From assembly GCA_000165345.1 (NCBI GenBank), contig CM000430.1:192001-256000 (forward strand): DNA of 64,000 nt, in the 5' to 3' direction. Positions 1 through 64,000 of the stretch are shown piece by piece; position 1 is the first letter of the stretch, and each line of letters opens with the position of its first letter. A program made the translations under genes and the position numbers. Under the pieces are notes generated by a model. That model did not search any database. It had not been told where the DNA came from and saw nothing but the letters and a program-made list of their open reading frames with translations.

Positions 1-2
1 AT

Positions 3-338
3 CTATCGTTTCTTTATAAATTCGAGGATTTAGAACAAATTAAGTCAATTTGCAAATCAACCTTGAAAATTTATACAATGGTAAATAAAAATCCTGGTGA
101 AAAAATTACTGAAGGAGGTAGAAGTGACCACGAGAAAAAGTATGAACTCTATGACGATCCAAAAAGTGCTGTAATTAGACAAGCTTTTAAAAGTGAAGAT
201 GTGACTTTAGATCTAGTCCATTTAAATAACGAAATAGATTCGATACATAACAATAAAAACATTATTCCAGTGGCAGACTTGCCACTTCCTTTAGTTTGTG
301 AAATGATATACTCGGATAAGTTTGCAGGGAAACAGTAA
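3..338 (+). CDS. Hypothetical protein; the frame is open from the window edge to the stop at 338, so this may be the 3' end of a gene that begins upstream (first ATG at 78)
   Basis: Frame 3 has no stop from position 3 to 338; the ORF-track start at 63 is a TTG; I recognise no domain in the 86-91 aa product. Confidence 0.25.
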   Translation, partial: LSFLYKFEDLEQIKSICKSTLKIYTMVNKNPGEKITEGGRSDHEKKYELYDDPKSAVIRQAFKSEDVTLDLVHLNNEIDSIHNNKNIIPVADLPLPLVCEMIYSDKFAGKQ

Positions 339-428
339 TTAAGAGAATATACTAGATGTATTTCGAGGTTATTAATATTGTTTCTATCATTACTAATGCT
401 TATTTTCTTTTTTTTTTTTTTAACTACC

Positions 429-1367
429 TTAAGCAGTAACGAAAGTTAGTATGTTTCTGAATGAAACAGATACTGTATCAAACATTTTTGACATTCTGTA
501 TGGACATGCATTTTCGTGGCATGGCTGAACATAATCGTTATTGACAAATCTTCGACTTACGAACCCGTTAGAATATCCCTTACCCCAAACAGGTGAGTTT
601 AAGTTAAATGATAAAGGTGTAAATTCTTTTAGAATATTCTGTGGTCCACTACTTTCATAATGAATGACTCCCCATTCTCCTTTATTATAAATGTCCCTAA
701 TTGTATACCAGCCATATAACAATCGATCTCCTTTAATACAGGATCCTTGGAACTTGGAGCAGGGTAGATAACCATCTTCTAAAACATTTAATAAAAATGC
801 TGTATCAAAAAGTGGGAGAGGACTTTCTGTTGCCTCATGTTGAGGTATTAATGATTGAACTAACTTATAACCAATAATATCCATATTTCTTACGTGGTAA
901 ATGGATGCAACTCTTAACTGGGTTCCTTGATCATATATATATGCAACACCATCCATTGACCTCAATAAGCATAGACCTGACAATTGTGGTCTCTCTGGTG
1001 TCTCGACTACCTTAAATTGAGATTTGAATGCTGGAATGATTGATAATATTCCTCCCCCAAAACCATTAAATGTATTACCAATTGAACATGCTGGAAGTCC
1101 TGCAATATCAACATCAGTCATTTCCTTGAAGAAATCTAACGATTTTCTTTCTAAATCTTCAATTTCACTCTGAGAAGCTCTCCAAATACGCCTATATACG
1201 TCGTAGTTGTTATCTGGAGGGAGATCGCCTCCTGTTGCCAATGGTACAATAATATCCGCCTGGAAATTTAATACATTCGTTATTTCACCTATTACGTGTT
1301 TAAATTTTATTAATACGTGTAAAATTAAAAAAAGTATTATACCTTCCCATCTATTAGTTTTTCTCAT
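429..1367 (-). CDS. Hypothetical secreted or signal-anchored protein (312 aa), family unknown
   Basis: ATG start confirmed (rc of cat at 1365-1367); the N-terminal hydrophobic stretch WEGIILFLILHVLI suggests a signal peptide or anchor; the body is globular and Cys-containing; no motif I can name. Confidence 0.55.
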   Translation of the reverse strand: MRKTNRWEGIILFLILHVLIKFKHVIGEITNVLNFQADIIVPLATGGDLPPDNNYDVYRRIWRASQSEIEDLERKSLDFFKEMTDVDIAGLPACSIGNTFNGFGGGILSIIPAFKSQFKVVETPERPQLSGLCLLRSMDGVAYIYDQGTQLRVASIYHVRNMDIIGYKLVQSLIPQHEATESPLPLFDTAFLLNVLEDGYLPCSKFQGSCIKGDRLLYGWYTIRDIYNKGEWGVIHYESSGPQNILKEFTPLSFNLNSPVWGKGYSNGFVSRRFVNNDYVQPCHENACPYRMSKMFDTVSVSFRNILTFVTA

Positions 1368-1752
1368 TTTTTTTCTTTTAAAAGATACTTCCTGGTTCTA
1401 AAAAACTAATTAGACTAGCGAATTTTTTTTTTTTTAGTATTGACTTTCCTTATAGATATTCAATAAAAAATCAAACTTTTGTATTTCTTTTCTTTTTGCC
1501 CTTTTATTGCTGAAATGTAGTCGGCAGAAGAAAAAAAAATAATAAATAATTTACCTTTTATATTTGACACGTTTCTTAATCAGAAACTTAAATATTAAAT
1601 GCTGTTGTCATTTATTCTTTAATTGTTGTCCTAGAGTATATTTTTTTCAGAGTTATCACTTTTTCAACAGCTCAATACACAATTTCACTAGAATACGAGT
1701 TACATGCATTTTTTGTGTTGTCCACATAAAATACTATAATATTAATGTGAAT

Positions 1753-1762
1753 TTACATGCAT
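1753..1762. promoter_or_regulatory. TGCATGCA palindrome (AP2-type motif) in the 5' flank of the gene at 429..1367
   Basis: tacatgcatgcaatt read directly, ~390 nt upstream of the ATG at 1367. Confidence 0.3.
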
Positions 1763-1964
1763 GCAATTAATAAGAAGCAACAAATAGGAGAGGAAGAAAA
1801 ATATGACGGAATAATATCAATAATTAATAGGTAATTAAAGCTACTCTAATGTATTCGTGTCTTTTTTAAATTATTAAAATGTTTTCTTAATACTACCTAT
1901 CCTAAATTCAAATGAGATAGAATACTCTCTTAACTAAATAAAGGTAATTATTAATAGAAGAGTT

Positions 1965-2597
1965 TTATAGGTTAGGAACGTCTTCTCCAGGAACTACAAA
2001 TTCCTCCACTCCACTCTTGTTAATGACTATAATTCTGATAATGCCACCAGAAGAAGAGTCTCTGAACATAGCGTGGGAAACTAAATCCCTAGCAAAAGAT
2101 TTACATTCATCAAGGTCCATTTCTGAATGGTACTTAGAGTCTAACATAGAGTAAATATAGCCTGATCCTGATCCTGATATTGCATATGAACCTTCAATCA
2201 AAGTTCCCCCCAATGGGATCCTGAAAACTTTAAATTCACCATTTGGATCCATTCCTGCAATGATCATATCTGCTAATAAGTGTTCTTTATTCTGATATGA
2301 TATCAATCTAGCAACAGAAGCGACAGACTTCACTTTTGTATCTTCGCCAGTCTCAAGCTCGTGATCCTGAACAATTCGGCGTACATATCTAGAAATAATT
2401 TGGGTGTCTGCTGCAGATCCAGAACGGCACATAAATACTTTATCAGTAATTTGAGTTATCTTCCTTGCTGCTCTAAAAGCAATAATTGGTCCAGTGGAGG
2501 TTCTTCCATCTGCTGCTAGAACCAACCCATCCTTGTATTTCAATGCCACAATTGTGGTTCCTGTCTCAATTTCTCCATTCAAAAAATCCAGTTCCAT
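1965..2597 (-). CDS. PSMB6: 20S proteasome beta subunit, beta1 (PSMB6/PRE3-like), catalytically active type
   Basis: A short propeptide ends ...ETG and is followed by the mature N-terminus TTIVAL (Thr1 nucleophile); the body aligns closely with PSMB6 (GADSRTTTG / SGSAADTQ / GSGSxYIY / SSGGxIR blocks). The ORF-track start at 2657 is a GTG; the first in-frame ATG is at 2597. Confidence 0.9.
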   Translation of the reverse strand: MELDFLNGEIETGTTIVALKYKDGLVLAADGRTSTGPIIAFRAARKITQITDKVFMCRSGSAADTQIISRYVRRIVQDHELETGEDTKVKSVASVARLISYQNKEHLLADMIIAGMDPNGEFKVFRIPLGGTLIEGSYAISGSGSGYIYSMLDSKYHSEMDLDECKSFARDLVSHAMFRDSSSGGIIRIIVINKSGVEEFVVPGEDVPNL

Positions 2598-3072
2598 GAT
2601 TTTCTGATCCTTTGTTCTAGCTTTCTTACTTATTTTAAATTCGTTTATTAAGCACACTAATTCAAAATTGCGCCAAAGAGGTTCACAGAATAAATTATGG
2701 GAAAATATATTTCAAACATTACGCGCAAATTAAAACAATAAAGATTTATTTGTTAGTTAATGAAATGGGAGTAATGGGGGTTTCTTTAAACTTTATATAC
2801 ATCCAATCAATCTAAGGATACCCTCCCCCCAAATATTTCTAGTACTTTCTGTCTGTTTCCCCTTATTTATGTGTATACAAGTAGTAACTAAAGTAGAATA
2901 GAAATAACAGTGAAAGATCTCCATATCTGCTCGGTAAAAATGAGGAAACATCTAATTTTTTTTCTCCACAGCAGTCATAAAGTGCAATATTTGATATAGA
3001 ATTAGACTTTACTAATGCTATTCAAATCAACTAAATAATGTGATAAAAAAAAGAATATCTGTCCTTTTTTTT

Positions 3073-3756
3073 TCAAGTAAGTTTAGGATTTTCGTTCATA
3101 GGATTCTCAGGAGACTTCTTCCAATTCTTTTGTAACATCTGAAGAAGTTGAGACCTTTTTAATGTGGGATTCTCATTCTTTAGAATTGGAAGGTTGTTAT
3201 CTACGTAAGCTAGCCATGCAGCTTTTTGTCTCTTCTCTGGATGCATATCTGCACTCTGCTTATCATCAACTCCAAGAGCCAAAAGAGCTTCATCAAGTGT
3301 TGATGCAGAAATATATTCAATATTCTTAGACTCAGTTTCAATCCTAAGTTCTTTCTCAATCCTATTGGGATTCTCCACAAGTAAATCGTCGTATCCTGAC
3401 TCTTCACTTTTGTTGCGAGAAATACCTGAAGAAGACTGCATTGCAAACATCAAAGTTCTTTTCGCTATCTCAGCCTTTGTAAGCTTGTTTCCTGTTGCTG
3501 TCTTGGCTTTGTTTGAAATTATCTTAGAATCTTCTTCCTCATATAACTTCTTTAACTCCTGTTTCTTTTGTTGTTTCTCTTCTTGCTTATTTAATGCCTC
3601 CTTTCTTCTTTCAATCTTCCTATTAGCATGTTTGTCATCATCTCTCCACTTTTCGTTCTCTGCACGTTCCTCCTCTTTTCTCTTCTTTTCTAAAGCTGCT
3701 GCCTGTTTTCTTTCTCGGGCTTCAAGAGCCTTCTGATTCATACCACCATATCCCAT
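3073..3756 (-). CDS. CCDC124: CCDC124 / Lso2-like ribosome-associated coiled-coil protein
   Basis: Lys/Glu-rich N-terminus with WRDDDKHANRK (human: WKDDDKHVMRK); C-terminal PEKRQKAAWLAYVDNNLPILKNENPTLKRSQLLQMLQKNWKKSPENPMN matches the CCDC124 C-terminal domain. Confidence 0.85.
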   Translation of the reverse strand: MGYGGMNQKALEARERKQAAALEKKRKEEERAENEKWRDDDKHANRKIERRKEALNKQEEKQQKKQELKKLYEEEDSKIISNKAKTATGNKLTKAEIAKRTLMFAMQSSSGISRNKSEESGYDDLLVENPNRIEKELRIETESKNIEYISASTLDEALLALGVDDKQSADMHPEKRQKAAWLAYVDNNLPILKNENPTLKRSQLLQMLQKNWKKSPENPMNENPKLT

Positions 3757-4301
3757 CTATTCTCTCATCTAACTAAAGCTTTTTATTCGGTAATTATTAC
3801 TTATTAGATAAATAATAACTCTTATTTCTAATCTTGGGTTAATTCCTTTACATTTATTTCTTAATTATTTTACTCATATAAGATTGAGCGCCAAAATGAC
3901 AAACCTAATTTAAATAGCATGCAAAAGGAATATTAACAAGATTAACACAGATATTACAAACTAGATAAAAAATAGCAATAAAATTACGGTAAAACTATGA
4001 AATCTCTAAATTCATAAATAGCAATATTATAAACAACATCTATTACACCTCTAGTTTTATCCCTGCTAGTTTTCTTTTGAAGTTACTAGCATTTATATGC
4101 TTTTAAGATGCAATTATTAGTACTATAAATATACAACGCGTTTCCCCCACGTAATTTTATTCTTCCTTTATGTGTATAAATACCTTAAATTTCAGTGAAT
4201 GAGTATTTAGTAAGCTGGAAAAAAAAAACTAAATAGCTCATTTTTTTCTTCTTTTTATTTCATTGTATATTTAAAAGTTTTGAGAATCTTTAGTATTTTT
4301 A

Positions 4302-6297: not shown

Positions 6298-7288
6298 CTA
6301 CCTACTTTTTTTCTTACTTTATTCACTAAGCCAAGCAATAATTACTTGAGCAGTTTTCATGTATGACTAATTGGCAATTAAGCGCCAAGCAACTTTTTCG
6401 TCTCTAAATTAATATTAGTGAGGGGGAAGCCAATATAATATTAAAGAAAAAATAATCAAAATGTAAATAGATATATATATGAATGACTTGTTTTTGATAT
6501 ATTTTGGGTGAGTATTTAGCTCTGAGCATCAGTGTCCAAATAACTGTTTCCCAATGATACTTTGGGGTCGTTGTTCTTATATAAAATTAAGATTATATCA
6601 TTTGACTCAACGGTAATTATTTTTCTAAAAATAAGTTAGGAAATGAGAATTTAAGTTAAACTTGTGCGTGTGTTCAGTGAATAAACTTACTTTTTTGTTG
6701 TTTCTATAGTTATTGAAATATTCTCACTCAAAATTGAGCTTGATAAAGAACTTCTAATTTGTGTGATAGTAGAACAAAACTCTGAGACTTCATGTTTAAT
6801 ATGTTTAGATCCATATTCTGATTAATATTTAGAGATTATTTACTAGAACAGCAATAAGATTAATATAATTTACCTTGAATTGGTAGGCCTGTTTTTGTAA
6901 AAGATGCCATTCCTATGAATCCTGGTGAATTCTTTAATATCTCATAAGTAGAACTCATTTTATTAAGACTAAAAATATAAATATGCACTAAATTTGAATC
7001 TTAGAAATTTAATTATTTAATTTTTATTACTTTATTCTTGTTTCAATTCAGTCAATTAAATTCGTGTGGCGCCGAACACGTATTGTGGGAATCTACTGTG
7101 CAAATTCAACAATGTTAAAAAATTAGGATAAAAAAACAGAAAAAAAATAGTATTAGCAACTATTAAGACTATAAATATATATATATATAGCAATGTAGAT
7201 AATATAAAAAGATTTTTCTAGTATTTGTTAGCATTAGCTATGCCTTCGGTATATATGAAGTCCAAATATTTGTAAATAACAAATCACA

Positions 7289-8515
7289 TCAACACCCATT
7301 ATATACATCCGAACGAGTAAATTTGGGTCGGTTGTTCTGGTTTGATACTTGTAACTTACTATATTGAGGAGGTGTACCAGAATTTCCATTTGAGCAATTT
7401 GCATTTGGAGATGTTGCAATATTCCTATTTACAGATATGGTAGGTTTGGACCAATTAAGGAAAATCTTTGCTTCATTTCGAAGTTTATATGAAACATCAG
7501 AGGAAATTAAAGGTTGGGTAAAGCTGTTCTTGTTTGAAGATTGTTGTGAAGAGTCTAATGAGTCCAATGTTTGAATATTCAATACTTGGCCTGTTGGCTT
7601 TTCAGTACAAGTACCTGAACTATCATTTTCATCAGAAAATTTTACTGCAATATGCGATAATTTTTCAATATTATCTTCAGAATTGTTTTTATGAATAATT
7701 TCGCCGCTATTTTTAGTACTTTGTTTTTTTAGCATTGTTATACGATTTTGCTCCTTCTTCTGAAAGATTTGACTATTAATTTGTATAGAAGTAGTCATGC
7801 CTGGTCCATTAGAAATGCTTGAACAACCATTTTCGACTAAAGATTCTGACTCCTCTAGATTGGACCTTCTTTCATTTTTTTGTTCAACCTTTGAAAGAAC
7901 GTCATTCAATAATCCATAATGCTTATGAGCATTTGGAGGAATACCATTAATCTTAATGTGCACATATAATGACCAGGAAGGGTAAAGAAAGAAACAAATC
8001 GATATAATACATAGTAAATAAGCACAAGAGTATGTAATATATCCACGGATAACGGAAGCAATTAGAGCGTAAACATTGGCTATTAGTTGAAAGTTCAATT
8101 GTATAAAAAAGAAATATACGCATCGAGAATTTGAAATTGTGCATCCAATATAACCAAGCACACCACAAAATATACCAAAAGATATCAATAATAGACCTAA
8201 TACCATTATAATGGCGACAAAGAGAACAGTTTGAGTTCCAATTACTTCAGTAAATAAGTAAGATCCCTCGAATACCAGCAAACTTAACCAAATACATATC
8301 GACATTATAGAGATAAGCCTTACAAATGTGTCAAGTTCACAGCCTAGTATATTTGAGGCAGGCTTGATAGGAATACAAAATAGGAATTCTGGATAACTCT
8401 CGCACTTCTTACCATGTGTTGTTCTAGTCGCTTTTCCAGGGTAAGGAAGTAAATGGTGTTTAAACTGTTCCCTTTCACCCTTCTTAGAGTAAGATAAACG
8501 ACGCTGATGTCGCAT
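7289..8515 (-). CDS. Hypothetical multi-pass membrane protein (about 4 TM helices) with a long Ser/Asn-rich hydrophilic C-terminal tail
   Basis: ATG confirmed at 8513-8515; four hydrophobic segments between residues ~60 and 200; low-complexity C-terminus; no recognisable family. Confidence 0.5.
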   Translation of the reverse strand: MRHQRRLSYSKKGEREQFKHHLLPYPGKATRTTHGKKCESYPEFLFCIPIKPASNILGCELDTFVRLISIMSICIWLSLLVFEGSYLFTEVIGTQTVLFVAIIMVLGLLLISFGIFCGVLGYIGCTISNSRCVYFFFIQLNFQLIANVYALIASVIRGYITYSCAYLLCIISICFFLYPSWSLYVHIKINGIPPNAHKHYGLLNDVLSKVEQKNERRSNLEESESLVENGCSSISNGPGMTTSIQINSQIFQKKEQNRITMLKKQSTKNSGEIIHKNNSEDNIEKLSHIAVKFSDENDSSGTCTEKPTGQVLNIQTLDSLDSSQQSSNKNSFTQPLISSDVSYKLRNEAKIFLNWSKPTISVNRNIATSPNANCSNGNSGTPPQYSKLQVSNQNNRPKFTRSDVYNGC

Positions 8516-11054: not shown

Positions 11055-11507
11055 TGCTTCCTATTCTTTTTTTCTTGGCCAAACAATTTTAAATTAATTG
11101 GTATAATTGACCACACAATACACCCTCTTTCTAAAAAAAAAACAAGAAAAAATGTATTTCCACTTCGCAAACTTCTTCCGGTTCCCCCCTATTTGGCTCA
11201 TTTTCAAGTATGAGACATGATGTCTTTAATGATTATTTGAAGGGCTCTATGTTTCCCGCCTATTCTTAAAAAATTATATTAAAAATATACTATGGGGAAA
11301 AAGTTAAGTATTGTGTGGAAAATATGTTTTCTGAGTAAAAATTTGTTGAAATAAAAAAGTGCAATATTTTGACCAAACATTGAAGTTTTGTGATAGTTAT
11401 TGAATAGCTTGGTTGAACACACAATATCGGGCATTTTTGAAGTTCTAATGGTTGATTTTGAAGTAAAATGCTAAATATATTGAAAATATAGGAAAATAAA
11501 TAAGAAA

Positions 11508-36562: not shown

Positions 36563-38326
<1,764 letters not shown>

Positions 38327-49911: not shown

Positions 49912-50050
49912 CGCAAATTACATACTTTTGGCCACAATATTTCTCTAATTAGTCAATTTATTTGTTCATTGACAGAAAAAAGTTTGGGCGGGAATATTTG
50001 AATTTGTCAACGATCAAAATGACATGAAATTACATTAAATTTAAAAAAAA

Positions 50051-51568: not shown

Positions 51569-51880
51569 TTTCACAAAATCACAAATCAACAGAAAGAATT
51601 ATTTAATATACATAAATCTATATAAATATCTAAATTATTTTTTACTTGGCTATTTGCATTATTAATTCATCCTTTTTTTGTCCTCACACAGTGTAGCGCA
51701 TTGGCGCCTAAATTTTGCACAGTCTTAATAAGTCCATAAGAAAAATTAGTGAGATGGGAGTGGAAATAAAAGGAAAAATCAAACTTATAATTAAAAGATT
51801 TTCGTGGTAGCTTGTTAGCGATGTTAGTGACTGTTACTTCAATGGAGGGAGTTGGAGACTTAATTATTCTGAACTAACCC

Positions 51881-54897: not shown

Positions 54898-54912
54898 TTT
54901 GCCGCCAAAATT
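54898..54912. promoter_or_regulatory. E2F-like motif (TTTGCCGCCAAAA) in the divergent MCM2 / PGS1 promoter region
   Basis: gtttgccgccaaaattg sits ~105 nt upstream of the MCM2 ATG (minus strand) and ~370 nt upstream of the PGS1 ATG; MCM genes are classical E2F targets. Confidence 0.45.
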
Positions 54913-55277: not shown

Positions 55278-56807
55278 ATGTCTGAAAAAATTATAGGCAA
55301 GGTTTTCAGGGTCAAAGATGATCAAATTCATATCTTGAATTCTCCATCATCATTTAAAGACTCACTTAACTCTATATTACTCAATGCTAAAAATAGGATA
55401 TATATTTCATCTTTATATACGGACAATGAAAATGAGGTAAGGGGAAAATTTTCAAATAGAATTCCCACTGAGTCATAGAATTTCAATTTATTATTAACTC
55501 ATTAATTTGTATCTCTATAGATTACCAAAACACTAAGAAATGTGGCTGAAAAATTAGAGAATAGTAGTGCTAGAGATTTAAAGATTAAAATAATTTTAGA
55601 TTATAATAGAATGACAAGAAAAGAAAATATTAACCCATTTATTAAGGCACTCAATAAATATCCAAACTCAGTAGTAATTTCACTCTGCAAAATTCCAATA
55701 GTTAATTATTCAGGTAATTTACTTGGACGAGCTACATGGAACGTGATAAATATTTTTTCAAAATACAAGAGAGTATCGTTTCTAAAGGAGGTGCTTGGAG
55801 TATACCACATAAAAATATTTATGGCAGATGACAACATAATTATCACCAGTGCAAATTTGAATTCTGAGTACCTTTTAAATAAACAAGATAGATACATAAT
55901 GATTACAGGTGCAAAGGAAATATGCGACTATTTCGAACAATCATTAGATTTAATATCAGAATACTCGCATAGAGTTTTGTCTGAGGGAGAAATACAAAAA
56001 CCTAAAAAACTCCATTTTAACGAATTAAAAAGAGATTTAATGGAGTTAAGTAGTGATGCAGACTTTCATGATAAAATAGCATCCACAATTAAGAAAAAGT
56101 TGAACAATGAAGATGCTTCTGATGATTGTGTACTGGCATCTTATTTTCAATGTTCTCCAATAAATATCAAAGCTGAAGAGCAAATCATTACAAATATTTC
56201 CCAACTTTGCGATAAAAAAAACACAGATATTTTTCTGATCGCTCCTTACCTAAATCTTCCCAAATACTTTATCTCACTGCTTAAAAATAGAGAGAGATCA
56301 GTAAATATAGTATCTGGAGTTCCTATCACGAAATGTGATAAAATGATTAAGAAACACAATAAACCGTCATTGGAAAGAATCAGAACTCTAGTTCTTCCAA
56401 AACTATACACTTACATAAATTACTTATTTATAAATCAGCTTAGGACGCAAGGAAATGGAATTATTAATTATTTCGAATATAAAAAGCCAAATTGGTCATT
56501 CCATTTTAAAGGTATTTATTTTTTTAGAAATATTAGCAAATCTAACCCTTGTGGCTCGAATATGCAAAATCAAGGGCAAATCATGGCTACTACATTTGGA
56601 AGTTCTAACTACAATTATAGAAGTACTAATAAGGATTTTGAGTGTTCATTTGTCCTAATACCCAATCAAAATAAAATTCTTGAAAAATCTTTAAATAATG
56701 AATTGACAAATATAATGAACACATCTGTAAAACAATGCGCGCCAAAAATCACTTGGAGACGTTTATTAATTTTGAAAGTAGTCAAAATATTTCAAGAATA
56801 TTTGTAG
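55278..56807 (+). CDS. PGS1: CDP-diacylglycerol--glycerol-3-phosphate 3-phosphatidyltransferase (PGS1, PLD-superfamily). Two exons (55278..55436, 55521..56807) with an 84-nt phase-0 intron
   Basis: Exon 1 ...ISSLYTDNENE|GTAAGG; acceptor tctctatag; exon 2 ITKTLRNVAEKLE... The spliced product matches PGS1 N-terminal conservation, and the HKD motif HIKIFMADDNIIITSANLNSEY lies in exon 2. The two parts are separate ORFs in the track. Confidence 0.85.
55437..55520 (+). other. Spliceosomal intron (84 nt, phase 0) in PGS1
   Basis: GTAAGGGGAAAATTTTC...TTTGTATCTCTATAG; joins the two track ORFs 55218..55478 and 55542..56807 into one PGS1 reading frame. Confidence 0.75.
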
Positions 56808-56895: not shown

Positions 56896-58386
56896 AAAAT
56901 GGAAATTATTGATCAAAACTGGGCCACTTTTGGATTTTACTTTTTATCAGTTGTAATATGCACCCTTTCAACTATAGTATTTTTCCTTTGGAAATCTGAT
57001 GGTGAAGTAAACACAAAAAAAGATATTTTTGAGACAATTAACTCTCCTTCTCTATCCGAAGAAAATGTTATTAGATATTCCAGACAAATTGCACTTAAAG
57101 AAGTTGGAGTATCTGGCCAAGTAAAATTAAAGAATGCAAAGGTATTAGTAATTGGTGCTGGCGGATTAGGTAGCCCAATTTTGCTTTATCTTACTGGAGC
57201 TGGAATTGGAGTTATTGGAGTTGTTGATCATGATACAGTTTCAACTAGTAATTTACATCGCCAAATTATTCATTCCACAGATAAAAACCATATGAGCAAA
57301 TCAATTAGTGCTAAACAATCATGTAATTCTCTTAATCCAAATACCCGAATTATCACATATCAAGAGGCTCTATCTATTGATCTAGTTAAGGAAATATTTC
57401 CACTCTATGATGTAATTGTAGATGCTACTGATAATTGTAGAAGTAGATATTTAATCAATGATGCAGCAGTATATTATAAAAAGCCTGTAGTTTCTGGAGC
57501 CGCACTGAAATGGCAGGGCCACGTCACTGTATATAACTATTCTAACGGCCCATGTTACAGATGTATTGCACCTAGAGAAGATAATGGAAAGGTTGATGGT
57601 ACTCCTGGAGGTGCAGAAATTTTTGGTGTATTAGGAATGATGGTTGGCGTTATTGGCTGTTTACAATCTACTGAAGTCATTAAAGTAATACTTAATGACT
57701 TTGGAAAGGGTGATAATAGTGGAATTGACTCTTCTAATCACCTTCCTGTTTTATCTGGGAAAATGCTCTTTTATAACTCATTAAGTAATGAACATATGGT
57801 ACGACTTGTTAGAATTAGAGATAAAAATAGCGAATGTAAAACATGTGGTAGTAATCCTATCCCATTCTTTAAGGCTGGAATTGATAGCTATAAAGTATTT
57901 AAGGGAATGGAAATGGCTAAAGACTCGTTCTACCCAATTCCAAGCTCAAATATTCTGAGCTCCGATAATTTTGAAGAAAAAATGAATCTTGCAAGAAAAT
58001 CAAACATTGATATCAAAATCTTTGACGTAAGACCAAAGAATCTTTATGATATTTCACATATTAAAGGCTCCAAGAATGTATTAGAGGACGACGTCATTAA
58101 GGGCCTTGCAAGCTTAGGCGTCCATACTAACTCTAAGACCGGTGAGATTATTAACTGGCCAAAGGATAAAAATGATCAAATCAAACAATTCTTGGTTGAA
58201 TACTTTCAAATTAATGAAAACTGTATTATTTTAGTACTCTGCTTAAATGGGGTTAGATCTTACTATATTTCTACAGTTATTCAGCAATGCTTTGATAAAC
58301 TAAATATGAAAGTATCAAACTACTACCTGAATGGAGGAATTTCATCTATTAGAAGCAAATTACTCAAAAATTTCCCAAATTTATAG
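56896..58386 (+). CDS. UBA4: Adenylyltransferase and sulfurtransferase MOCS3/Uba4 (E1-like ThiF/MoeB domain plus C-terminal rhodanese domain)
   Basis: RYSRQIAL...VLVIGAGGLGSP...VDHDTVSTSNLHRQ (ThiF nucleotide-binding fold), CxxC zinc pairs (CYRC...CKTC), C-terminal rhodanese fold IFDVRP...active-site-loop region; the N-terminus carries a hydrophobic stretch WATFGFYFLSVVICTLSTIVFFLW. Confidence 0.9.
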   Translation, partial: KMEIIDQNWATFGFYFLSVVICTLSTIVFFLWKSDGEVNTKKDIFETINSPSLSEENVIRYSRQIALKEVGVSGQVKLKNAKVLVIGAGGLGSPILLYLTGAGIGVIGVVDHDTVSTSNLHRQIIHSTDKNHMSKSISAKQSCNSLNPNTRIITYQEALSIDLVKEIFPLYDVIVDATDNCRSRYLINDAAVYYKKPVVSGAALKWQGHVTVYNYSNGPCYRCIAPREDNGKVDGTPGGAEIFGVLGMMVGVIGCLQSTEVIKVILNDFGKGDNSGIDSSNHLPVLSGKMLFYNSLSNEHMVRLVRIRDKNSECKTCGSNPIPFFKAGIDSYKVFKGMEMAKDSFYPIPSSNILSSDNFEEKMNLARKSNIDIKIFDVRPKNLYDISHIKGSKNVLEDDVIKGLASLGVHTNSKTGEIINWPKDKNDQIKQFLVEYFQINENCIILVLCLNGVRSYYISTVIQQCFDKLNMKVSNYYLNGGISSIRSKLLKNFPNL

Positions 58387-60573: not shown

Positions 60574-61542
60574 CTAGCTACTTTCAATTGTGAATCCAAT
60601 AATTATAGGCAGTAATACTACGAGAATTAGTATAAATATACACAAAATAATCCAAAGCATCTTTTTCTGAGTTTTCTTTTGATACTTTCTGGCGGAAATT
60701 AATTCAATATCTGCCTTTTCAGTGTAATCTTTTGCAGTTGAAACGGAAAATTCAATATGATCCAACATTTCACCCTGCTCGTTAATCAATGATGCTAATT
60801 CAATAAATAGTTGCTGAAGCTCTTCAACACTTTTCTCAAGCTTTCTAATATCTCTATATCTATCTTGTAATTCAGTTATTGCATTTCCAATAGTTTCATG
60901 TGATCCACTCAATTTCATTTTTATTAGTTGCGTTGTAGTTATCTTACCTTCTTCTTCTGCAATGGACTCAATAGCACTTTGCGTTGCATCTGGATAAACA
61001 ATTTTGATTTGCCTAAAGATTTTATTTCTCATCTCAGTTTTGTACTCGGATTGCACGGACTGAAACTCATATATAGTTTCCCTAAATCTTTTTGAAATAG
61101 TTTGGAGTAAGTTCTCTCTAATCATAATTTCAGTAGCTTCTTTCTTGCTTGCCTTCTTTTTAAGATTTTCATTTTGGATCCTCAAATATTCTATATTATT
61201 CTTTAGCTCCAGAGTCTTTTCATGAGTCTCATCCAGAATCTTAGCTAAATTTTCAGATATTTCCTCGTCCTTGCTTGAACTCGTAGTTAGCAATGCACGT
61301 TGTTTATTAATCCTAATTCCATCAATCATCTTATTTATATAACCAAGAGAAACTCCAATCGAGCGAATCTCACTGTAATAACTGGACATTTCTTCATCGT
61401 TTTTTGAGTTGCCATTTTGCTCATTTACGCCTTGGTCCACACCTACTTGAGCAACACCCTTTTCAGCATTGCTAATTGCAGCAGAGAATTCTGGGTGTTT
61501 TGCAACTGCATATTTCCTAAGATCATAGAGTAGGTCAATCAT
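60574..61542 (-). CDS. Syntaxin (Qa-SNARE), tail-anchored
   Basis: Habc-like N-terminal coiled coils; the SNARE motif IRKLEKSVEELQQLFIELASLINEQGEMLDHIEFSV is followed by a basic linker and the C-terminal TM WIILCIFILILVVLLPIIIGF. Confidence 0.85.
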   Translation of the reverse strand: MIDLLYDLRKYAVAKHPEFSAAISNAEKGVAQVGVDQGVNEQNGNSKNDEEMSSYYSEIRSIGVSLGYINKMIDGIRINKQRALLTTSSSKDEEISENLAKILDETHEKTLELKNNIEYLRIQNENLKKKASKKEATEIMIRENLLQTISKRFRETIYEFQSVQSEYKTEMRNKIFRQIKIVYPDATQSAIESIAEEEGKITTTQLIKMKLSGSHETIGNAITELQDRYRDIRKLEKSVEELQQLFIELASLINEQGEMLDHIEFSVSTAKDYTEKADIELISARKYQKKTQKKMLWIILCIFILILVVLLPIIIGFTIESS

Positions 61543-61642
61543 GTATGTAATCTCACATCCGAATATTAAATGAAATTCAGTCTCATTGCTACTTTTTATT
61601 CTTGATTTAATTTATCAACTTTTTTCATTTACAAATATGTGC

Positions 61643-61658
61643 CACGTGGCGCCAAATC
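61643..61658. promoter_or_regulatory. CACGTG box immediately abutting an E2F-like GGCGCCAAA motif, upstream of syntaxin
   Basis: gccacgtggcgccaaatcac sits ~100 nt upstream of the syntaxin ATG (minus strand). Confidence 0.4.
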
Positions 61659-62593
61659 ACAAATATTTATTTAATTGCACAGATCCAAATAAATTGTATG
61701 ATATTTACTATATAACGGACAGGAAAAAACACATAAGTTTGCTAAGATAATTCCCACAATTAAAATACCTTGTGAAAATTTTACTGTAAACTAATTTAAT
61801 CTAAACCTTAATTTTGAACCGCTCTAGGCTTCTTCTGCCTCAATTAACAATGATTGCTCAATGTTTGACTATAGATAGGACCTATGCTTAAAGCAATTAA
61901 GACTTGTATTCCAAGTTTTACAATACTTGACTCATTCCCTACCTCCAAATCATAATGCTACAATTTATATATTTCAAATAATAACTATTTAATACAATGC
62001 GATTTTGATGACAAAAATAACGTATTTTTTTCTAATCCTATAGAATGTATTTAGCATCGAATTCTATTCTTAAATGATTTGAATTATGATTCATTCCAAT
62101 AATTGAGCTTTTACATTCAAACTATTAATCAAGCGCACTCAAAACTACCTTCTCGTTTTAAGTCGTAATACAGCAGCTTGAATCAAGATCCAGCACTATA
62201 TGTAGAAATATAACTCATTTATACATATTTGTGAAGAATTTATTACTTTTTACTTGAATTTTTCCCGTTTAAAATACTCAAAATTCTAATCAAGATCAAT
62301 AGTAAAAAAAGGTGATAAACTCTAAGCTAAGGAAAATTTTATTAACAAATTATATGCAATAATAAATTGCTTTAGAAATGCTTACGAGCAGGAAGCTGCA
62401 AATTCACGTTAATATTAAATCTTATATTCTAATGAAAAATTTATTCGAGGAAAAATGGGAGCAAGATCAATTGCCGGCAAATCACTTTAATTTATTAAAC
62501 ATAAATATTATGTACAATTTTTATATTTATAACTGTATCTTTTCCTATTATTTTAATTAAAGATAAATTAACTTTTGAAATGTGTCTTGAAAT

Positions 62594-62606
62594 TGGGCGC
62601 CAAATC
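62594..62606. promoter_or_regulatory. E2F-like palindrome TTGGGCGCCAAAT upstream of the C2H2 zinc-finger gene
   Basis: attgggcgccaaatcgcc; a second GCCGCCAA sits at ~62693, 150 nt from the ATG. Confidence 0.4.
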
Positions 62607-62842
62607 GCCAATTCCAGTTTTTTATATAGTCAAATATATATATAAAGTCGCTGGAGTGGAGCGAATAATTAAAATATTGTGGTTATAGGACGCCGCCAAT
62701 AATTAATAAATAATTATTACTTTTTTCCTTTCCAGTTGAAATTAAACGAGTTTATGTAAGCGGTTTGCTTTGTGATTAAACAGTTGAGTAAAAGTTGGCA
62801 ACATTAGTAGAATCAAATAATATTCGTTATTTATGAAGAGTA

Positions 62843-63850
62843 ATGTCTTCAGAAGCAGTAGATGTGAAATCTCCAAGACTATTCGCTTGTGGATATCCTG
62901 GTTGTCATGCATCGTTTAAAAGAAGGTCTCATTTGGAGCGTCATGCTCAAACTCATACCGGAATAAAGCTTTTTAAATGTCATGAATGTTCAAAAGCATT
63001 CGGAAGAAGTGACCACTTACGCCGTCATATGATGTTGGTACATAGCTCAATTGAAGAAAAAGCGAGTTATCCATGTTCATCCTGTAATAGTGTATTTATG
63101 AGTCCAACATCATTAAGAAGACATATTAAAAGGTCACATGACACACCATATATTTGTGAGGTTTGTGGTAATCTCTTTCCATCTGCCACTTCCCTTCAGA
63201 GGCATACTCTCAGGCAACATCTTACTGCTGAAATTCCATTTCCTAATCGTACAGAAGATAGCAATTCAAAGCAATGTTGGTATGTTTGCAGAGCTGATCC
63301 TATGTTATGCTCTGCGGCTTTTCTTTCGTACCCTGGCTTAGTAAGACACATTAAATCTAAGCACTGGTCCTCGTCTAATGAGCCACAACCACTCATTCTT
63401 AACCAGAATCAGTGTATAATAAATAATGAGAATTCGCAAAATCAATGCCTATACGCCTTGCCTAATGAGGCCAACGTAGGCCATAACGAAAATGATCCCT
63501 TATTGAATAATACAATTGGGGAAAATAAAGATAGTGATATTGATTGTTCATATAGGTGTCCATACCCTGATTGTGGAAGATTTTATAGCTCAAAGAGCAA
63601 TGTCAGAAAACACATACAAGTTTCACATTGTAACAGCAAACCTTACGAATGCCACTTATGCCCCAAAAAGTACGGCTACAGAACTCCTTATATTCGCCAT
63701 ATGAAAAACAGCCACCCTGAATTCCAAGACGAAAACATAATAAATGACCATTGTAGTGGAATTACCACAATGGACGAATCTCACAGCGATCTAACGATAC
63801 CCGGAACTCCTCACTACCCTCCACTATACGTTGATGCTATTCCTTTTTAA
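62843..63850 (+). CDS. C2H2 zinc-finger protein (at least 6 C2H2 fingers in two clusters)
   Basis: Repeated C-x2-4-C-x12-H-x3-5-H units: CGYPGCHASFKRRSHLERHAQTH, CHECSKAFGRSDHLRRHMMLVH, CSSCNSVFMSPTSLRRHIKRSH, CEVCGNLFPSATSLQRHTLRQH, CPYPDCGRFYSSKSNVRKHIQVSH, CHLCPKKYGYRTPYIRHMKNSH. Confidence 0.8.
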   Translation: MSSEAVDVKSPRLFACGYPGCHASFKRRSHLERHAQTHTGIKLFKCHECSKAFGRSDHLRRHMMLVHSSIEEKASYPCSSCNSVFMSPTSLRRHIKRSHDTPYICEVCGNLFPSATSLQRHTLRQHLTAEIPFPNRTEDSNSKQCWYVCRADPMLCSAAFLSYPGLVRHIKSKHWSSSNEPQPLILNQNQCIINNENSQNQCLYALPNEANVGHNENDPLLNNTIGENKDSDIDCSYRCPYPDCGRFYSSKSNVRKHIQVSHCNSKPYECHLCPKKYGYRTPYIRHMKNSHPEFQDENIINDHCSGITTMDESHSDLTIPGTPHYPPLYVDAIPF

Positions 63851-64000
63851 TTTGGCTCGGGGCCGCATAATCATATTAAATGGAAGTAAACTAATTCAAA
63901 TTATCAAATTTTATAGTATCAATAGCTTGAAGCTTTAATTTTTGTTTATTTAAGAGATTTTCTATTTTATACAAAAAAAATTATTAGAATAGGAAAACAT

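What the first reader, a model, noticed from the sequence alone, without database searches (positions are those of the whole stretch)
1..64000. Compact apicomplexan-type nuclear locus, most consistent with Cryptosporidium or a close relative
No single gene settles the lineage, but five independent features together point strongly to an apicomplexan, most plausibly Cryptosporidium. (1) The window is ~30% GC with one gene per ~1.9 kb, intergenic spacers often under 150 nt, and very few short introns. (2) It encodes a CDPK with four EF hands, which is restricted to plants and alveolates. (3) It carries tandem insulinase-like M16A proteases, a family that is conspicuously expanded in Cryptosporidium. 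(4) It carries a Thr/Ser-rich GPI-type mucin. (5) GGCGCC/GGCGGGAA motifs sit upstream of almost every gene, which is the over-represented E2F-like upstream motif reported for Cryptosporidium.
Basis: partly seen in the sequence, partly recalled or inferred. Interest (0 to 1): 0.5.

Follow-up and report, generated by a model that had tools for sequence, protein, structure and literature searches.

The report
Cryptosporidium parvum chromosome 2 segment

Summary
The lineage call is right and can be made exact. The window is Cryptosporidium parvum chromosome 2 (IOWA-type). 23,081 nt are 100% identical to GenBank CP044421.1. The rest is 99.89-100% identical to other C. parvum assemblies. Eight of eight full-length proteins are exact matches to C. 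parvum entries.

Four of the five supporting features hold:
- The genome is compact: 32.6% GC, 32 genes (2.0 kb per gene), 77% genic, and four genes with short introns (53-147 nt where resolved).
- A CDPK with four canonical EF loops is present. It is CpCDPK2A (cgd2_1060).
- Two tandem M16A insulinase-like genes are present: INS3 (cgd2_920) and INS4 (cgd2_930).
- E2F-like upstream motifs are strongly over-represented: GGCGCC 16 versus 0.9 expected, GGCGGGAA 6 versus 0.2.

Two statements are overstated:
- E2F-like sites lie upstream of about two-thirds of genes (22/32), not "almost every" gene.
- The "Thr/Ser-rich mucin" has only 17% Ser+Thr and no Ser/Thr runs. It is a signal-peptide protein with a C-terminal hydrophobic tail.

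The locus is already known, so interest is low. Two side observations may deserve follow-up. One is a minus-strand C/D-box-like RNA candidate (38,499-38,623) with a 56-nt block invariant across eight Cryptosporidium species. The other is clade-specific variants of the E2F-like site.

The parts
429..1367 (-). 312-aa protein with a hydrophobic N-terminus; no Pfam family
   Evidence: ORF; no Pfam hit; N-terminal hydrophobicity
1965..2597 (-). Proteasome beta-type subunit (start codon inferred at the internal ATG)
   Evidence: PF00227, E 1.6e-50
3073..3756 (-). Ccdc124/Oxs1-family protein, 227 aa
   Evidence: PF06244; called gene in CP044421.1
4302..6197 (-). BRE1-like coiled-coil protein with a C-terminal C3HC4 RING E3 ligase domain, 631 aa
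   Evidence: RING Pfam families; the best solved-structure hits are BRE1/BRE1A RING domains
6516..6958 (-). 106-aa gene with intron(s), about 122 nt non-coding in total; no family
   Evidence: Called gene in CP044421.1; no single-intron solution found
7289..8515 (-). 408-aa protein with hydrophobic stretches, no Pfam family
9210..11054 (-). CCT8 (TCP-1 theta), 565 aa; 147-nt intron at 10905-11051 directly after the ATG
   Evidence: PF00118, E 8e-146; the ten best PDB hits are all subunit theta; intron
11508..12638 (+). Divergent protein kinase, 376 aa
   Evidence: PF00069
12972..16052 (+). INS3 (cgd2_920), M16A insulinase-like protease, 1026 aa, HFLEH at residue 69, N-terminus not hydrophobic
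   Evidence: Pfam M16/M16_C/M16_M/PqqF_C4; exact match to QOY43141.1; HxxEH; gene name from PMC8092296 plus gene order
16478..19519 (+). INS4 (cgd2_930), M16A insulinase-like protease, 1013 aa, HFLEH at residue 69; 29% identical to INS3
   Evidence: PMC8092296
20061..23252 (+). 1063-aa protein with a hydrophobic N-terminus and a C-terminal hydrophobic tail (by position cgd2_940). It has a conserved Cys-containing N-terminal domain of about 400 aa, then a low-complexity Ser/Lys/Asn-rich region
   Evidence: Source name 'signal peptide plus transmembrane domain or GPI anchor'; composition; 48% identity to the C. bovis orthologue over the N-terminal domain only
23796..25109 (+). 437-aa protein with a weak prenyltransferase-alpha repeat hit
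   Evidence: PF01239 below cut-off
25323..27155 (+). 610-aa coiled-coil protein
27257..29566 (-). 769-aa protein, no family
30080..30697 (+). RNA polymerase subunit RPB5 (cgd2_980)
   Evidence: PF03871 and PF01191; exact match named 'Cgd2_980 protein'
31217..33115 (-). Queuine tRNA-ribosyltransferase-family protein, 632 aa
   Evidence: PF01702; gene model
33623..35542 (-). RRM-domain protein, 639 aa; length varies 637-639 aa among C. parvum assemblies
   Evidence: PF00076; gene models
36566..38326 (+). DEAD-box RNA helicase, 586 aa
   Evidence: PF00270 and PF00271; exact match
38499..38623 (-). Side observation: candidate C/D-box-like non-coding RNA. Features: 56-nt block invariant in 8 species (38568-38623); 5' hairpin 38597-38617; C box GUGAUGU 38560-38566; covarying hairpin 38523-38550; D box CUGA 38504-38507; terminal stem GCAGC (38568-38572) with GCUGU (38499-38503)
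39451..40743 (+). Proteasome lid subunit Rpn9/PSMD13, 430 aa
   Evidence: PF22037 and PF01399
41048..41992 (-). Mitochondrial carrier family protein, 314 aa
   Evidence: PF00153, three repeats
42065..42795 (-). Cytochrome b5-domain protein, 225 aa; 53-nt intron at 42187-42239
   Evidence: PF00173; gene model; intron
43221..44264 (+). 347-aa protein with a hydrophobic N-terminus, no family
44396..46552 (-). CpCDPK2A (cgd2_1060), 718 aa: kinase domain at residues 205-456 and four EF loops at residues 582, 618, 654 and 697
   Evidence: Pfam; EF loops; both published cgd2_1060 primers match exactly at 46532-46549 and 44399-44423
47641..47961 (+). Ribosomal protein S25, 106 aa
   Evidence: PF03297 on the called gene
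48157..49911 (-). 584-aa protein, no family
50051..51568 (-). MBOAT-family O-acyltransferase, 505 aa
   Evidence: PF03062; gene model
51881..54793 (-). MCM2, 970 aa
   Evidence: MCM2_N, MCM_N, MCM_OB, MCM and MCM_lid; exact match; identity ladder
55278..56807 (+). PLD-like (PLDc_2) protein, 481 aa; 84-nt intron at 55437-55520
   Evidence: PF13091; gene model; intron
56899..58386 (+). ThiF plus rhodanese protein (UBA4/MOCS3-like), 495 aa
   Evidence: PF00899 and PF00581
58408..60453 (-). 681-aa protein, no family
60574..61542 (-). Syntaxin (t-SNARE), 322 aa
   Evidence: PF00804 and PF05739; exact match
62843..63850 (+). C2H2 zinc-finger protein, 335 aa
   Evidence: PF00096 and related families
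2670..2677 (.). E2F-like site GCGCCAAA, 72 nt upstream of the proteasome-beta gene
3888..3895 (.). E2F-like site GCGCCAAA, upstream of the Ccdc124 gene
7068..7073 (.). GGCGCC, 109 nt upstream of the 106-aa gene
11252..11260 (.). TTTCCCGCC in the divergent CCT8/kinase promoter
12817..12822 (.). GTTGGCGCCA, 149 nt upstream of INS3
16298..16305 (.). GGCGGGAA, 172 nt upstream of INS4
19892..19899 (.). GGCGGGAA, 161 nt upstream of the 1063-aa gene
23281..23288 (.). GGCGGGAAA, just 3' of the 1063-aa gene and 507 nt upstream of the next gene
23673..23678 (.). GTTGGCGCCA, 117 nt upstream of the 437-aa gene. C. ubiquitum has a GGCGCC site at the same position, and gastric species have GCGGTATA there
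25181..25189 (.). TTTGGCGCC, 133 nt upstream of the 610-aa gene; an E2F-like site lies 89-189 nt upstream of this gene in all seven species compared
36200..36205 (.). GGCGCC in the divergent RRM/DEAD promoter
38698..38706 (.). TTTGGCGCC, about 75-80 nt upstream (minus-strand sense) of the invariant block of the RNA candidate
39251..39256 (.). GGCGCC, 194 nt upstream of Rpn9; conserved in C. ubiquitum and followed by a conserved G-rich box
42030..42035 (.). GGCGCC in the 72-nt spacer upstream of the mitochondrial carrier gene
47473..47478 (.). GGCGCC, 162 nt upstream of RPS25
49987..49994 (.). GGCGGGAA, 75 nt upstream of the 584-aa gene
51703..51708 (.). GGCGCC, 134 nt upstream of the MBOAT gene
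54898..54909 (.). TTTGCCGCCAAA (canonical TTTSSCGC), about 105 nt upstream of MCM2 in the divergent MCM2/PLD-like promoter
61648..61656 (.). GGCGCCAAA, 105 nt upstream of the syntaxin gene
62596..62604 (.). GGCGCCAAA, 241 nt upstream of the zinc-finger gene

Best explanation
The window is a nuclear segment of Cryptosporidium parvum chromosome 2 (IOWA-type strain). It corresponds to about 730,268-794,267 of GenBank CP044421.1, reverse complement, and runs from roughly cgd2_8xx to cgd2_11xx. It carries 32 closely packed, mostly intronless protein-coding genes. These are housekeeping genes (proteasome beta and Rpn9, CCT8, RPB5, RPS25, MCM2, a DEAD-box helicase, UBA4, syntaxin) interspersed with parasite-typical genes: the INS3/INS4 tandem insulinase-like proteases, CpCDPK2A, and several genus-restricted proteins that match no Pfam family.

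The GGCGCC / GGCGGGAA / TTTSSCGC words are the E2F-like promoter elements already described for this species. They are concentrated about 40-250 nt upstream of start codons, in spacers that contain a promoter. Published ATAC-seq and motif work infers, but has not shown, that the parasite's E2F/DP heterodimers bind them. Cryptosporidium is the only apicomplexan genus reported to retain E2F/DP.

Shown here: species identity, gene content, synteny, and motif enrichment and position. Inferred: E2F/DP binding and promoter function.
For: Identity: L001 (CP044421.1 768216-791296, reversed) is identical at all 23,081 positions to window 2972-26052. Other C. parvum-type assemblies are 99.89-100% identical over 26.5-64 kb. 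C. meleagridis is 91.9% identical, C. ubiquitum 77-83%, and C. bovis and C. muris 71-75% in conserved genes only. Eight of eight full-length proteins are exact matches to C. parvum IOWA-ATCC/Iowa II entries.

Gene identities: Pfam; CCT8 is the theta subunit; the BRE1-like RING; CpCDPK2A via both published primers; INS3 and INS4 via PMC8092296.

Synteny: gene order is kept in eight other Cryptosporidium species.

Motifs: GGCGCC 16 versus 0.92 expected; GGCGGGAA 6 versus 0.23; DTTGSCGCCH 13 versus 0.34. GGCGCC is the top de novo hexamer in the spacers. 22/32 genes have a site upstream, against 1.2 in shuffles. 0/6 convergent spacers have one, against 17/25 promoter-bearing spacers. These match the published motifs TGGCGCCA and TTTGGCGGGAA (PMC3734150) and the reported E2F motif enrichment in open chromatin (bioRxiv 10.1101/2025.01.17.633476).
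Against: Nothing argues against the species assignment. Base-for-base identity to CP044421.1 was verified only for 2972-26052. For the remainder it rests on exact protein matches and on 99.9% or higher identity to sister assemblies. The six convergent spacers used as a negative control total only 1,271 nt. E2F/DP binding to these sites has not been demonstrated experimentally in the literature read.
Confidence: 0.98

Rival explanations
1. The window comes from a close relative (C. hominis, C. tyzzeri, C. meleagridis or another intestinal species) rather than C. parvum.
For: These species share gene order and proteins at 90% identity or more.
Against: The exact-sequence look-ups hit C. parvum accessions for all eight proteins, and for most of them the C. 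hominis, C. tyzzeri and C. meleagridis versions are listed as different cluster members (RPB5 is identical in several species). DNA identity is 100% to C. parvum IOWA-ATCC and only 91.9% to C. meleagridis. C. hominis and C. tyzzeri DNA was not compared directly.
Confidence: 0.015
2. The window comes from a non-apicomplexan AT-rich compact eukaryote, such as a ciliate or amoebozoan.
For: Taken alone, conserved proteins such as MCM2 have their nearest listed non-Cryptosporidium relatives in plants, algae, fungi and Stentor at 43-49% identity. No other apicomplexan is named among the 120 hits listed.
Against: MCM2 is 74-96% identical to seven other Cryptosporidium species. The window has nucleotide-level identity to C. 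parvum.
Confidence: 0.002
3. The GGCGCC-type words are over-represented for a reason other than E2F/DP binding. Possibilities are a site for another factor, a core-promoter or nucleosome-positioning signal, or a mutational or compositional quirk of spacers.
For: No direct binding data exist. In the syntenic promoters of gastric species the word at the same position is GCGGTATA, and in C. bovis and C. ryanae it is GCGCCA. This shows the sequence is not rigidly fixed.
Against: The words match the universal E2F consensus ([C/G]GCGC[G/C], TTTSSCGC). C. parvum encodes E2F and DP proteins, which are reported missing in other apicomplexans. The motif dominates ATAC-seq peaks. MCM2, a classical E2F target in animals and plants (general knowledge), carries a canonical TTTGCCGCC about 105 nt upstream. 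Dinucleotide-preserving shuffles exclude a purely compositional origin.
Confidence: 0.15

Closest known systems
Cryptosporidium parvum IOWA-ATCC chromosome 2, GenBank CP044421.1 (assembly GCA_015245375.1)
   Same: Identical sequence over the 23,081 nt compared, with the same gene models and the same eight proteins.
   Different: Nothing detected. Identity over the other 41 kb was checked only through proteins and sister assemblies, which show 0-9 mismatches per roughly 22 kb.
E2F-like upstream motifs of C. parvum (Oberstaller et al. 2013, PMC3734150: motif 3 DTTGSCGCCH, motif 4 TTTGGCGGGAAV)
   Same: The same words, the same upstream location and a comparable degree of over-representation.
   Different: In this window the motif covers about two-thirds of genes rather than nearly all. 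In the syntenic DNA of C. bovis, C. ryanae and the gastric species the full GGCGCC palindrome is largely replaced by other variants. I did not find that point in the papers read.
Insulinase-like protease (INS) family of C. parvum, M16A (Xu et al. 2021, PMC8092296)
   Same: INS3 and INS4 have the four-domain M16A architecture, the HXXEH motif and no hydrophobic N-terminal stretch, as published.
   Different: They share only 29% identity. One INS gene lies directly upstream of the 1063-aa protein's orthologue in C. bovis, C. ryanae and C. felis, and both copies are present in C. meleagridis. This suggests, but does not prove, that the tandem pair is old rather than part of the recent subtelomeric INS expansions.
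Apicomplexan and plant calcium-dependent protein kinases; closest solved structure 4MVF (named 'calcium-dependent protein kinase 2' in the PDB)
   Same: A Ser/Thr kinase domain followed by four EF hands. The gene is the published CpCDPK2A.
   Different: There is a roughly 200-residue N-terminal extension. About 125 residues separate the end of the kinase domain (about 456) from the first EF loop (582), which from general knowledge of CDPKs looks longer than usual; no comparison was made here.
Mucin-type glycoproteins of Cryptosporidium (gp900, gp40/15, CpMuc genes; named from general knowledge, not examined here)
   Same: The 1063-aa protein has a hydrophobic N-terminus and a hydrophobic C-terminal tail compatible with a transmembrane or GPI signal.
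   Different: It has no Ser/Thr-rich tracts: 17% Ser+Thr and no run of 5 or more. Its N-terminal domain of about 400 aa contains Cys and is conserved, which suggests a folded domain; no structure was predicted. It should not be filed as a mucin.
C/D box snoRNAs with long 5' extensions (U3/U8-type, from general knowledge) and the novel intermediate-size ncRNAs of C. parvum (Li et al. 2022, PMC9465071)
   Same: The side-observation RNA has a C-box-like GUGAUGU, a D box CUGA and a 5-bp terminal stem. It is conserved genus-wide, like the 28 candidates those authors report in all 10 Cryptosporidium species examined.
   Different: It matches no Rfam family. The region next to box D is not conserved as a typical 10-nt or longer guide. 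The invariant part is a 56-nt 5' domain. I could not check whether it is in Li et al.'s Table S6.

Membership tests
Cryptosporidium parvum nuclear genome (species-level identity) | Near-100% nucleotide identity to a reference assembly over long stretches | tested here: met
   100% over 23,081 nt to CP044421.1. 99.89-100% to other C. parvum assemblies over the rest of the window. 91.9% to C. meleagridis.
Cryptosporidium parvum nuclear genome (species-level identity) | Encoded proteins identical to annotated C. parvum proteins | tested here: met
   Eight of eight full-length proteins found by exact look-up under C. parvum accessions.
Cryptosporidium parvum nuclear genome (species-level identity) | Collinear gene order with other Cryptosporidium genomes | tested here: met
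   The same order is found in C. meleagridis, ubiquitum, felis, bovis, ryanae, muris, andersoni and serpentis. The one exception is a break upstream of the 437-aa gene in the gastric species.
Calcium-dependent protein kinase (CDPK) | A Ser/Thr kinase domain fused to a calmodulin-like domain with four EF hands in one polypeptide | tested here: met
   Pkinase at residues 205-456, with GKGTYG, HRDLKPEN, DFG and APE motifs. Four 12-residue EF loops at 582, 618, 654 and 697.
Calcium-dependent protein kinase (CDPK) | An autoinhibitory junction between the kinase and the EF hands; calcium-dependent activation | not testable with these tools
   The linker is about 125 residues, which looks long. Its function is not assessable from sequence.
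M16A insulinase-like protease (INS) | HXXEH zinc-binding motif in the first domain | tested here: met
   HFLEH at residue 69 in both proteins.
M16A insulinase-like protease (INS) | Four-domain architecture of about 1000 aa (active N domain plus three inactive domains) | tested here: met
   Peptidase_M16, M16_C, M16_M and PqqF-like_C_4 in both proteins.
M16A insulinase-like protease (INS) | Proteolytic activity | not testable with these tools
Mucin-type glycoprotein | Extended Ser/Thr(/Pro)-rich tracts suitable for dense O-glycosylation | tested here: not met
   Ser+Thr is 17.2% overall and at most 34% in any 50 residues. There is no run of 5 or more, and Pro is 4.4%.
Mucin-type glycoprotein | Secretory signal and GPI or membrane anchor | tested here: inconclusive
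   A hydrophobic N-terminus and a hydrophobic extreme C-terminus are present. The source annotation reads 'transmembrane domain or GPI anchor'. No dedicated predictor was available.
E2F/DP binding site | Match to the consensus TTTSSCGC or [C/G]GCGC[G/C] | tested here: met
   34 sites under the union definition. 13 matches to published motif 3 against 0.34 expected.
E2F/DP binding site | Enrichment in promoter regions | tested here: met
   26 of 34 sites are intergenic. 22/32 genes have a site upstream, against 1.2 in shuffles. 0/6 convergent spacers have one.
E2F/DP binding site | Occupancy by E2F/DP proteins | not testable with these tools
   Only inferred in the literature.
C/D box snoRNA (side observation, 38499-38623 minus strand) | Box C (RUGAUGA) near the 5' end of the core and box D (CUGA) near the 3' end | tested here: met
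   RUGAUGU and CUGA are invariant in eight species. The last C-box position is U, not A.
C/D box snoRNA (side observation, 38499-38623 minus strand) | A terminal stem bringing boxes C and D together | tested here: inconclusive
   GCAGC/GCUGU pairs in all eight species but never varies, so covariation neither supports nor contradicts it.
C/D box snoRNA (side observation, 38499-38623 minus strand) | A guide of 10 nt or more, complementary to rRNA or snRNA, upstream of box D or D' | not tested
Only about 7 nt upstream of box D are conserved.
C/D box snoRNA (side observation, 38499-38623 minus strand) | Expression as a stable small RNA | not testable with these tools
   The supplementary tables of the sRNA-seq study are not held.

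The most novel reading that the evidence does not exclude
The locus itself is known. The most novel readings left open concern two side observations.
(a) The 56-nt block at 38568-38623, invariant across eight Cryptosporidium species, belongs to an undescribed minus-strand RNA. This RNA has a C/D-box-like core and a long conserved 5' domain, a U3/U8-like architecture from general knowledge. It would be a genus-specific essential RNA absent from Rfam.
(b) The E2F-like promoter word has shifted between clades at orthologous promoter positions: GGCGCC/GGCGGGAA in the C. parvum-like intestinal species, GCGCCA in C. bovis and C. ryanae, and GCGGTATA / TAGCGCTA in the gastric species. This would imply co-evolution of E2F/DP specificity within one genus.
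Probability: 0.2. Interest if true: 0.4.

Novelty: already known. Interest (0 to 1): 0.07.

Why it matters
For the scan, this is a positive control. A reader working from raw sequence alone identified the genus correctly from composition, gene content and a promoter motif. Biologically the locus is fully annotated in public databases, and several of its genes (INS3, INS4, CpCDPK2A) are already under study, so it opens no new question.

The only value beyond confirmation lies in the side observations. If the ultra-conserved RNA candidate and the clade-specific E2F-site variants are not already catalogued, they would be cheap to follow up with existing sRNA-seq, ATAC-seq and genome data.

Tried and rejected
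- tRNA scan: none found.
- Rfam at gathering score, and at E up to 1, over the whole window: no matches. Rfam at E up to 10 on 38400-38800 gave only three chance-level hits.
- Metagenome scan for a 30-nt piece of the invariant block: no match.
- Supplementary tables of Li et al. 2022, needed to see whether the RNA candidate is already listed, are not held. Searching the main text for gene IDs gave nothing relevant.
- ORF listing in the four long spacers (35543-36565, 38327-39450, 46553-47640, 61543-62842) found nothing convincing.
- Identities considered for the RNA candidate from memory of consensus sequences, and set aside:
  - U4 (partial resemblance to the U6-pairing region, but one mismatch), U5 (UUUUAC in a loop, but a 7-nt loop) and U3 box A/A'. 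Single U4, U5 and U3 genes are reported elsewhere in the genome by Rfam-based annotation.
  - Telomerase RNA: no template longer than a 7-nt CUAAACC, which is expected by chance.
  - TPP riboswitch: the motifs are in the wrong order.
  - snR30/U17: m1-like AUAUUGCUA is present but there is no m2.
  - Coding exon: rejected because all third codon positions are invariant and the variable hairpin covaries.
- 'Mucin' reading of 20061-23252: rejected on composition.
- My first strict motif definition (GGCGCC, GGCGGGAA) undercounted. It missed canonical TTTSSCGC sites such as the one upstream of MCM2, and was corrected.
- The strict motif also made C. bovis look motif-poor, although it retains the half-site GCGCCA.

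Full report
**What the window is.**
The window has 32.6% G+C and no Ns. It is filled with long ORFs on both strands. Exact-sequence look-up of eight full-length ORF products found every one under Cryptosporidium parvum accessions (IOWA-ATCC QOY431xx, Iowa II EAK888xx and others). The eight were two insulinase-like proteases, MCM2, the CDPK, a DEAD-box helicase, the 1063-aa protein, RPB5 and a syntaxin. For most of them the C. hominis, C. tyzzeri and C. meleagridis versions appear as non-identical cluster members; RPB5 is identical in several species.

The contig look-up for the first protease returned GenBank CP044421.1 (assembly GCA_015245375.1, 992,704 nt), positions 768,216-791,296 reversed. 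That 23,081-nt locus is identical at every base to window 2972-26052. By arithmetic, the window is about 730,268-794,267 of that record, reverse complement.

For the rest of the window:
- Other C. parvum-type assemblies are 99.89-100% identical.
- C. meleagridis is 91.9% identical.
- C. ubiquitum is 77-83% identical.
- C. bovis and C. muris align only in conserved genes, at 71-75%.

MCM2 gives the same picture at protein level. Identity is 96% to chipmunk genotype I, 86% to C. felis, 81% to C. bovis, ryanae and xiaoi, and 74% to C. muris. It then drops to 43-49% in plants, green algae, fungi and Stentor. Its remark that no single conserved gene settles the lineage is fair.

**Gene content.**
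Gene models carried by the public contigs, combined with Pfam scans, give 32 genes, listed under 'parts'.
- The chaperonin is the theta subunit: the ten best solved-structure hits are all CCT theta.
- The coiled-coil RING protein hits BRE1 RING domains best.
- The CDPK is CpCDPK2A (cgd2_1060). The published 718-aa length, four EF hands and both cloning primers match exactly at 46532-46549 and 44399-44423, spanning the published 2,151 bp. Four canonical EF loops lie at residues 582, 618, 654 and 697.
- RPB5 is named cgd2_980 by its source. Counting genes in steps of ten fits cgd2_1060 for the CDPK. It places the two proteases at cgd2_920 and cgd2_930, published as INS3 and INS4 of a 22-member family (PMC8092296).
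- Both proteases have HFLEH at residue 69 and the four M16 domains. They are only 29% identical to each other. One INS gene lies directly upstream of the 1063-aa protein's orthologue in C. bovis, C. ryanae and C. felis, and both copies are present in C. meleagridis. This suggests, but does not prove, that the tandem pair is old.

**Checking the five arguments.**
1. *Compactness holds.* The window is 77% genic, with 2.0 kb per gene. The median spacer is 425 nt and 7 of 31 spacers are under 150 nt. Four genes have introns: 147, 53 and 84 nt with GTAAG 5' splice sites, plus an unresolved total of about 122 nt in the fourth.
2. *The CDPK holds.*
3. *The tandem insulinases hold.*
4. *The mucin label does not hold.* The protein at 20061-23252 has 17.2% Ser+Thr, no Ser/Thr run of five or more, and 4.4% Pro. 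Its first roughly 400 residues contain Cys and are conserved, with 48% identity to C. bovis. The remainder is low-complexity and diverges, while the C-terminal hydrophobic tail is retained. 'Signal peptide plus transmembrane domain or GPI anchor', as one source names it, is the defensible description.
5. *The motif claim is qualitatively right.*
   - GGCGCC occurs 16 times versus 0.92 expected. GGCGGGAA occurs 6 times versus 0.23. The published DTTGSCGCCH occurs 13 times versus 0.34.
   - 17 of the 22 strict sites lie in the 22.7% of sequence that is intergenic (p about 9e-8).
   - GGCGCC is the top hexamer in an unbiased scan of the spacers. It is followed by the G-box and by GCATGC, both also published C. 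parvum motifs.
   - Coverage is lower than 'almost every gene'. 18/32 genes have a strict site. 22/32 have one once the canonical TTTSSCGC is added, 18 of them within 300 nt of the ATG, against 1.2 +/- 1.2 genes in 200 dinucleotide-preserving shuffles.
   - None of the six convergent spacers has a site, against 17 of 25 promoter-bearing spacers.
   - MCM2, a classical E2F target in animals and plants (general knowledge), has TTTGCCGCC about 105 nt upstream.

**How it most likely works.**
The sites match the E2F/DP consensus. C. parvum encodes E2F and DP proteins, which are reported absent from other apicomplexans. E2F motifs dominate ATAC-seq peaks at the 5' ends of mono- and polycistronic transcription units. 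The best-supported reading is that they are promoter elements bound by E2F/DP. Binding itself remains an inference in the literature and could not be tested here.

**Synteny.**
The gene order of the window is retained in C. meleagridis, ubiquitum, felis, bovis, ryanae, muris, andersoni and serpentis. There is one exception. In the three gastric species, a Kazal-domain gene in two of them (an unassigned 530-aa gene in C. muris) lies on the opposite strand upstream of the 437-aa gene's orthologue, where the intestinal species have the 1063-aa gene.

**Side observation 1: a conserved RNA candidate.**
The 1,124-nt DEAD-to-Rpn9 spacer has about 40% G+C, against 28% for spacers generally. It is 87% identical between C. 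parvum and C. ubiquitum, more than the flanking coding DNA. A core of about 135 nt is the only spacer element in the 20-64 kb part of the window that aligns strongly to C. bovis (89%) and to C. muris and C. andersoni (83%). It is present at the same place in all eight species examined.

Features of the element:
- A 56-nt block (38568-38623) is invariant in all eight species.
- Read on the minus strand, it is followed by RUGAUGU, then a hairpin, then AGAUAG-CUGA-GCUGU. The GCUGU can pair with the GCAGC that precedes the C-like box.
- The hairpin has four pairs with compensatory changes. It also has nine G-U cells that would be A-C mismatches on the plus strand.
- On the named structure, 98.3% of cells pair, against 30-53% when the partners are slid.
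- Folding z-scores are modest, -2.0 on the minus strand and -1.8 on the plus strand.
- A conserved TTTGGCGCC lies about 75-80 nt upstream on that strand.
- No Rfam family matches.

This looks like a C/D-box-type small RNA with a long conserved 5' domain. Li et al. 2022 report 79 novel intermediate-size RNAs in C. parvum, 28 of them conserved in all ten Cryptosporidium species they examined.

**Side observation 2: the promoter word differs by clade.**
I compared the syntenic region of about 20 kb centred on RPB5.
- GGCGCC occurs in spacers 5, 4 and 5 times in C. parvum, ubiquitum and felis.
- It occurs 0 and 0 times in C. bovis and ryanae.
- It occurs 1, 1 and 0 times in C. muris, andersoni and serpentis.
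- GCGGTA occurs 5, 5 and 4 times in the three gastric species.

In 12 kb of C. muris spacers the top words are GCGGTATA (5 versus 0.1 expected) and GCGCTAAA (4 versus 0.08). In C. bovis the top word is GCGCCA (7 versus 0.6).

At orthologous promoters the variants sit at matching distances from the ATG:
- Upstream of the 437-aa gene: TGGCGCCAA at -123 and -126 in C. parvum and ubiquitum, against AGCGGTATA at -117 to -121 in the gastric species.
- Upstream of MCM2: TGGCGGCAAA at -113 in C. parvum, against TGGCGGTATA at -107 in C. muris.

The sample is small. I found no genus-wide comparison in the papers read.

**Verdict.**
The locus is already known and well annotated, so interest is low. The two side observations are leads, not findings.

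Noticed in passing
window 38499-38623 (minus strand); conserved flanks to about 38650; also L014:18267-18516, L020:17513-17697, L015:16916-17051, L019:16866-16991, L013:17181-17314, L012:17224-17357, L018:15795-15928: A candidate structured non-coding RNA lies in the DEAD-box to Rpn9 spacer. A 56-nt block is invariant in eight Cryptosporidium species. It has C-box-like RUGAUGU, D box CUGA and a possible terminal stem. A hairpin shows four compensatory pairs plus G-U pairs valid only on the minus strand. There is no Rfam match. It may coincide with one of the genus-wide RNAs of Li et al. 2022, whose tables I could not read.
   Followed up: partly
spacers of window 20061-41047 and of L012-L020; e.g. 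window 23673, 25184, 54898 versus L013:2426, 4243 and L016:9894: The E2F-like promoter word differs by clade at orthologous positions about 90-190 nt upstream of start codons. It is GGCGCC/GGCGGGAA in C. parvum, ubiquitum and felis. It is the half-site GCGCCA in C. bovis and ryanae. It is GCGGTATA and TAGCGCTA in C. muris, andersoni and serpentis. The sample is small (20-43 kb per species).
   Followed up: partly
window 31500-39500: G+C rises to 0.40-0.44, against 0.29-0.34 elsewhere. The rise covers the TGT-family, RRM and DEAD-box genes and extends into the DEAD-to-Rpn9 spacer. The cause was not examined beyond the conserved RNA candidate.
   Followed up: partly
window 33320-33419 and 33867-33904: An imperfect (AGT)n microsatellite of about 33 units lies in the TGT-RRM spacer. 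A (GTA)n/12-mer repeat lies inside the RRM gene. The RRM protein is 637, 638 or 639 aa in different C. parvum assemblies, so this may be a length-polymorphic marker.
   Followed up: no
window 20061-23252; L012:1-932, L013:1-1075, L018:104-718: The 1063-aa protein has orthologues at this position in intestinal and bovis-clade species: C. meleagridis (1052 aa), C. ubiquitum (1028 aa), C. felis (1012 aa), C. bovis (990 aa) and C. ryanae (986 aa). Upstream of the neighbouring gene in the gastric species lies an opposite-strand gene instead. It carries Kazal domains in C. andersoni and C. serpentis; the C. muris gene has no family on record. This is a synteny break or a lineage-specific gene. Only the N-terminal domain of about 400 aa is conserved.
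   Followed up: partly
window spacers 41993-42064 (72 nt), 56808-56898 (91 nt), 60454-60573 (120 nt), 49912-50050 (139 nt); convergent spacer 58387-58407 (21 nt): Several same-strand gene pairs are separated by only 72-139 nt. Two of these spacers carry an E2F-like site and two do not. They are candidates for the polycistronic units recently described in C. parvum. One convergent pair is only 21 nt apart, which implies overlapping 3' ends.
   Followed up: no
all spacers of the window, e.g. 39275-39295 (GGGAGGGGGGAGAGGGGAAG): Besides the E2F-like word, the G-box (CCCCCC/GGGGGG, 15 versus 0.6 expected) and GCATGC/CATGCA (12 versus 2.3 and 16 versus 4.2) are over-represented in the spacers. These are the other two published C. 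parvum upstream motif families.
   Followed up: partly
window 44396-46552 (CpCDPK2A); L016:18888-21599; L017:17711-19705: CpCDPK2A has a roughly 200-residue N-terminal extension and about 125 residues between the kinase domain and the first EF loop. The orthologue is 903 aa in C. muris and 664 aa in C. bovis, so the non-catalytic parts vary greatly in length within the genus.
   Followed up: no
window 62648-62709; L017:2181-2242: A 63-nt stretch about 135-195 nt upstream of the C2H2 zinc-finger gene is 82.5% identical to C. bovis. This is unusual for spacer DNA at that evolutionary distance. It may be a conserved UTR or regulatory element.
   Followed up: no
L015:14566-17682 and L019:14575-17641: The public C. 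bovis and C. ryanae contigs have no called gene where the DEAD-box helicase lies in the other species, although the conserved RNA element is present there. This is probably an annotation gap, but it was not checked.
   Followed up: no
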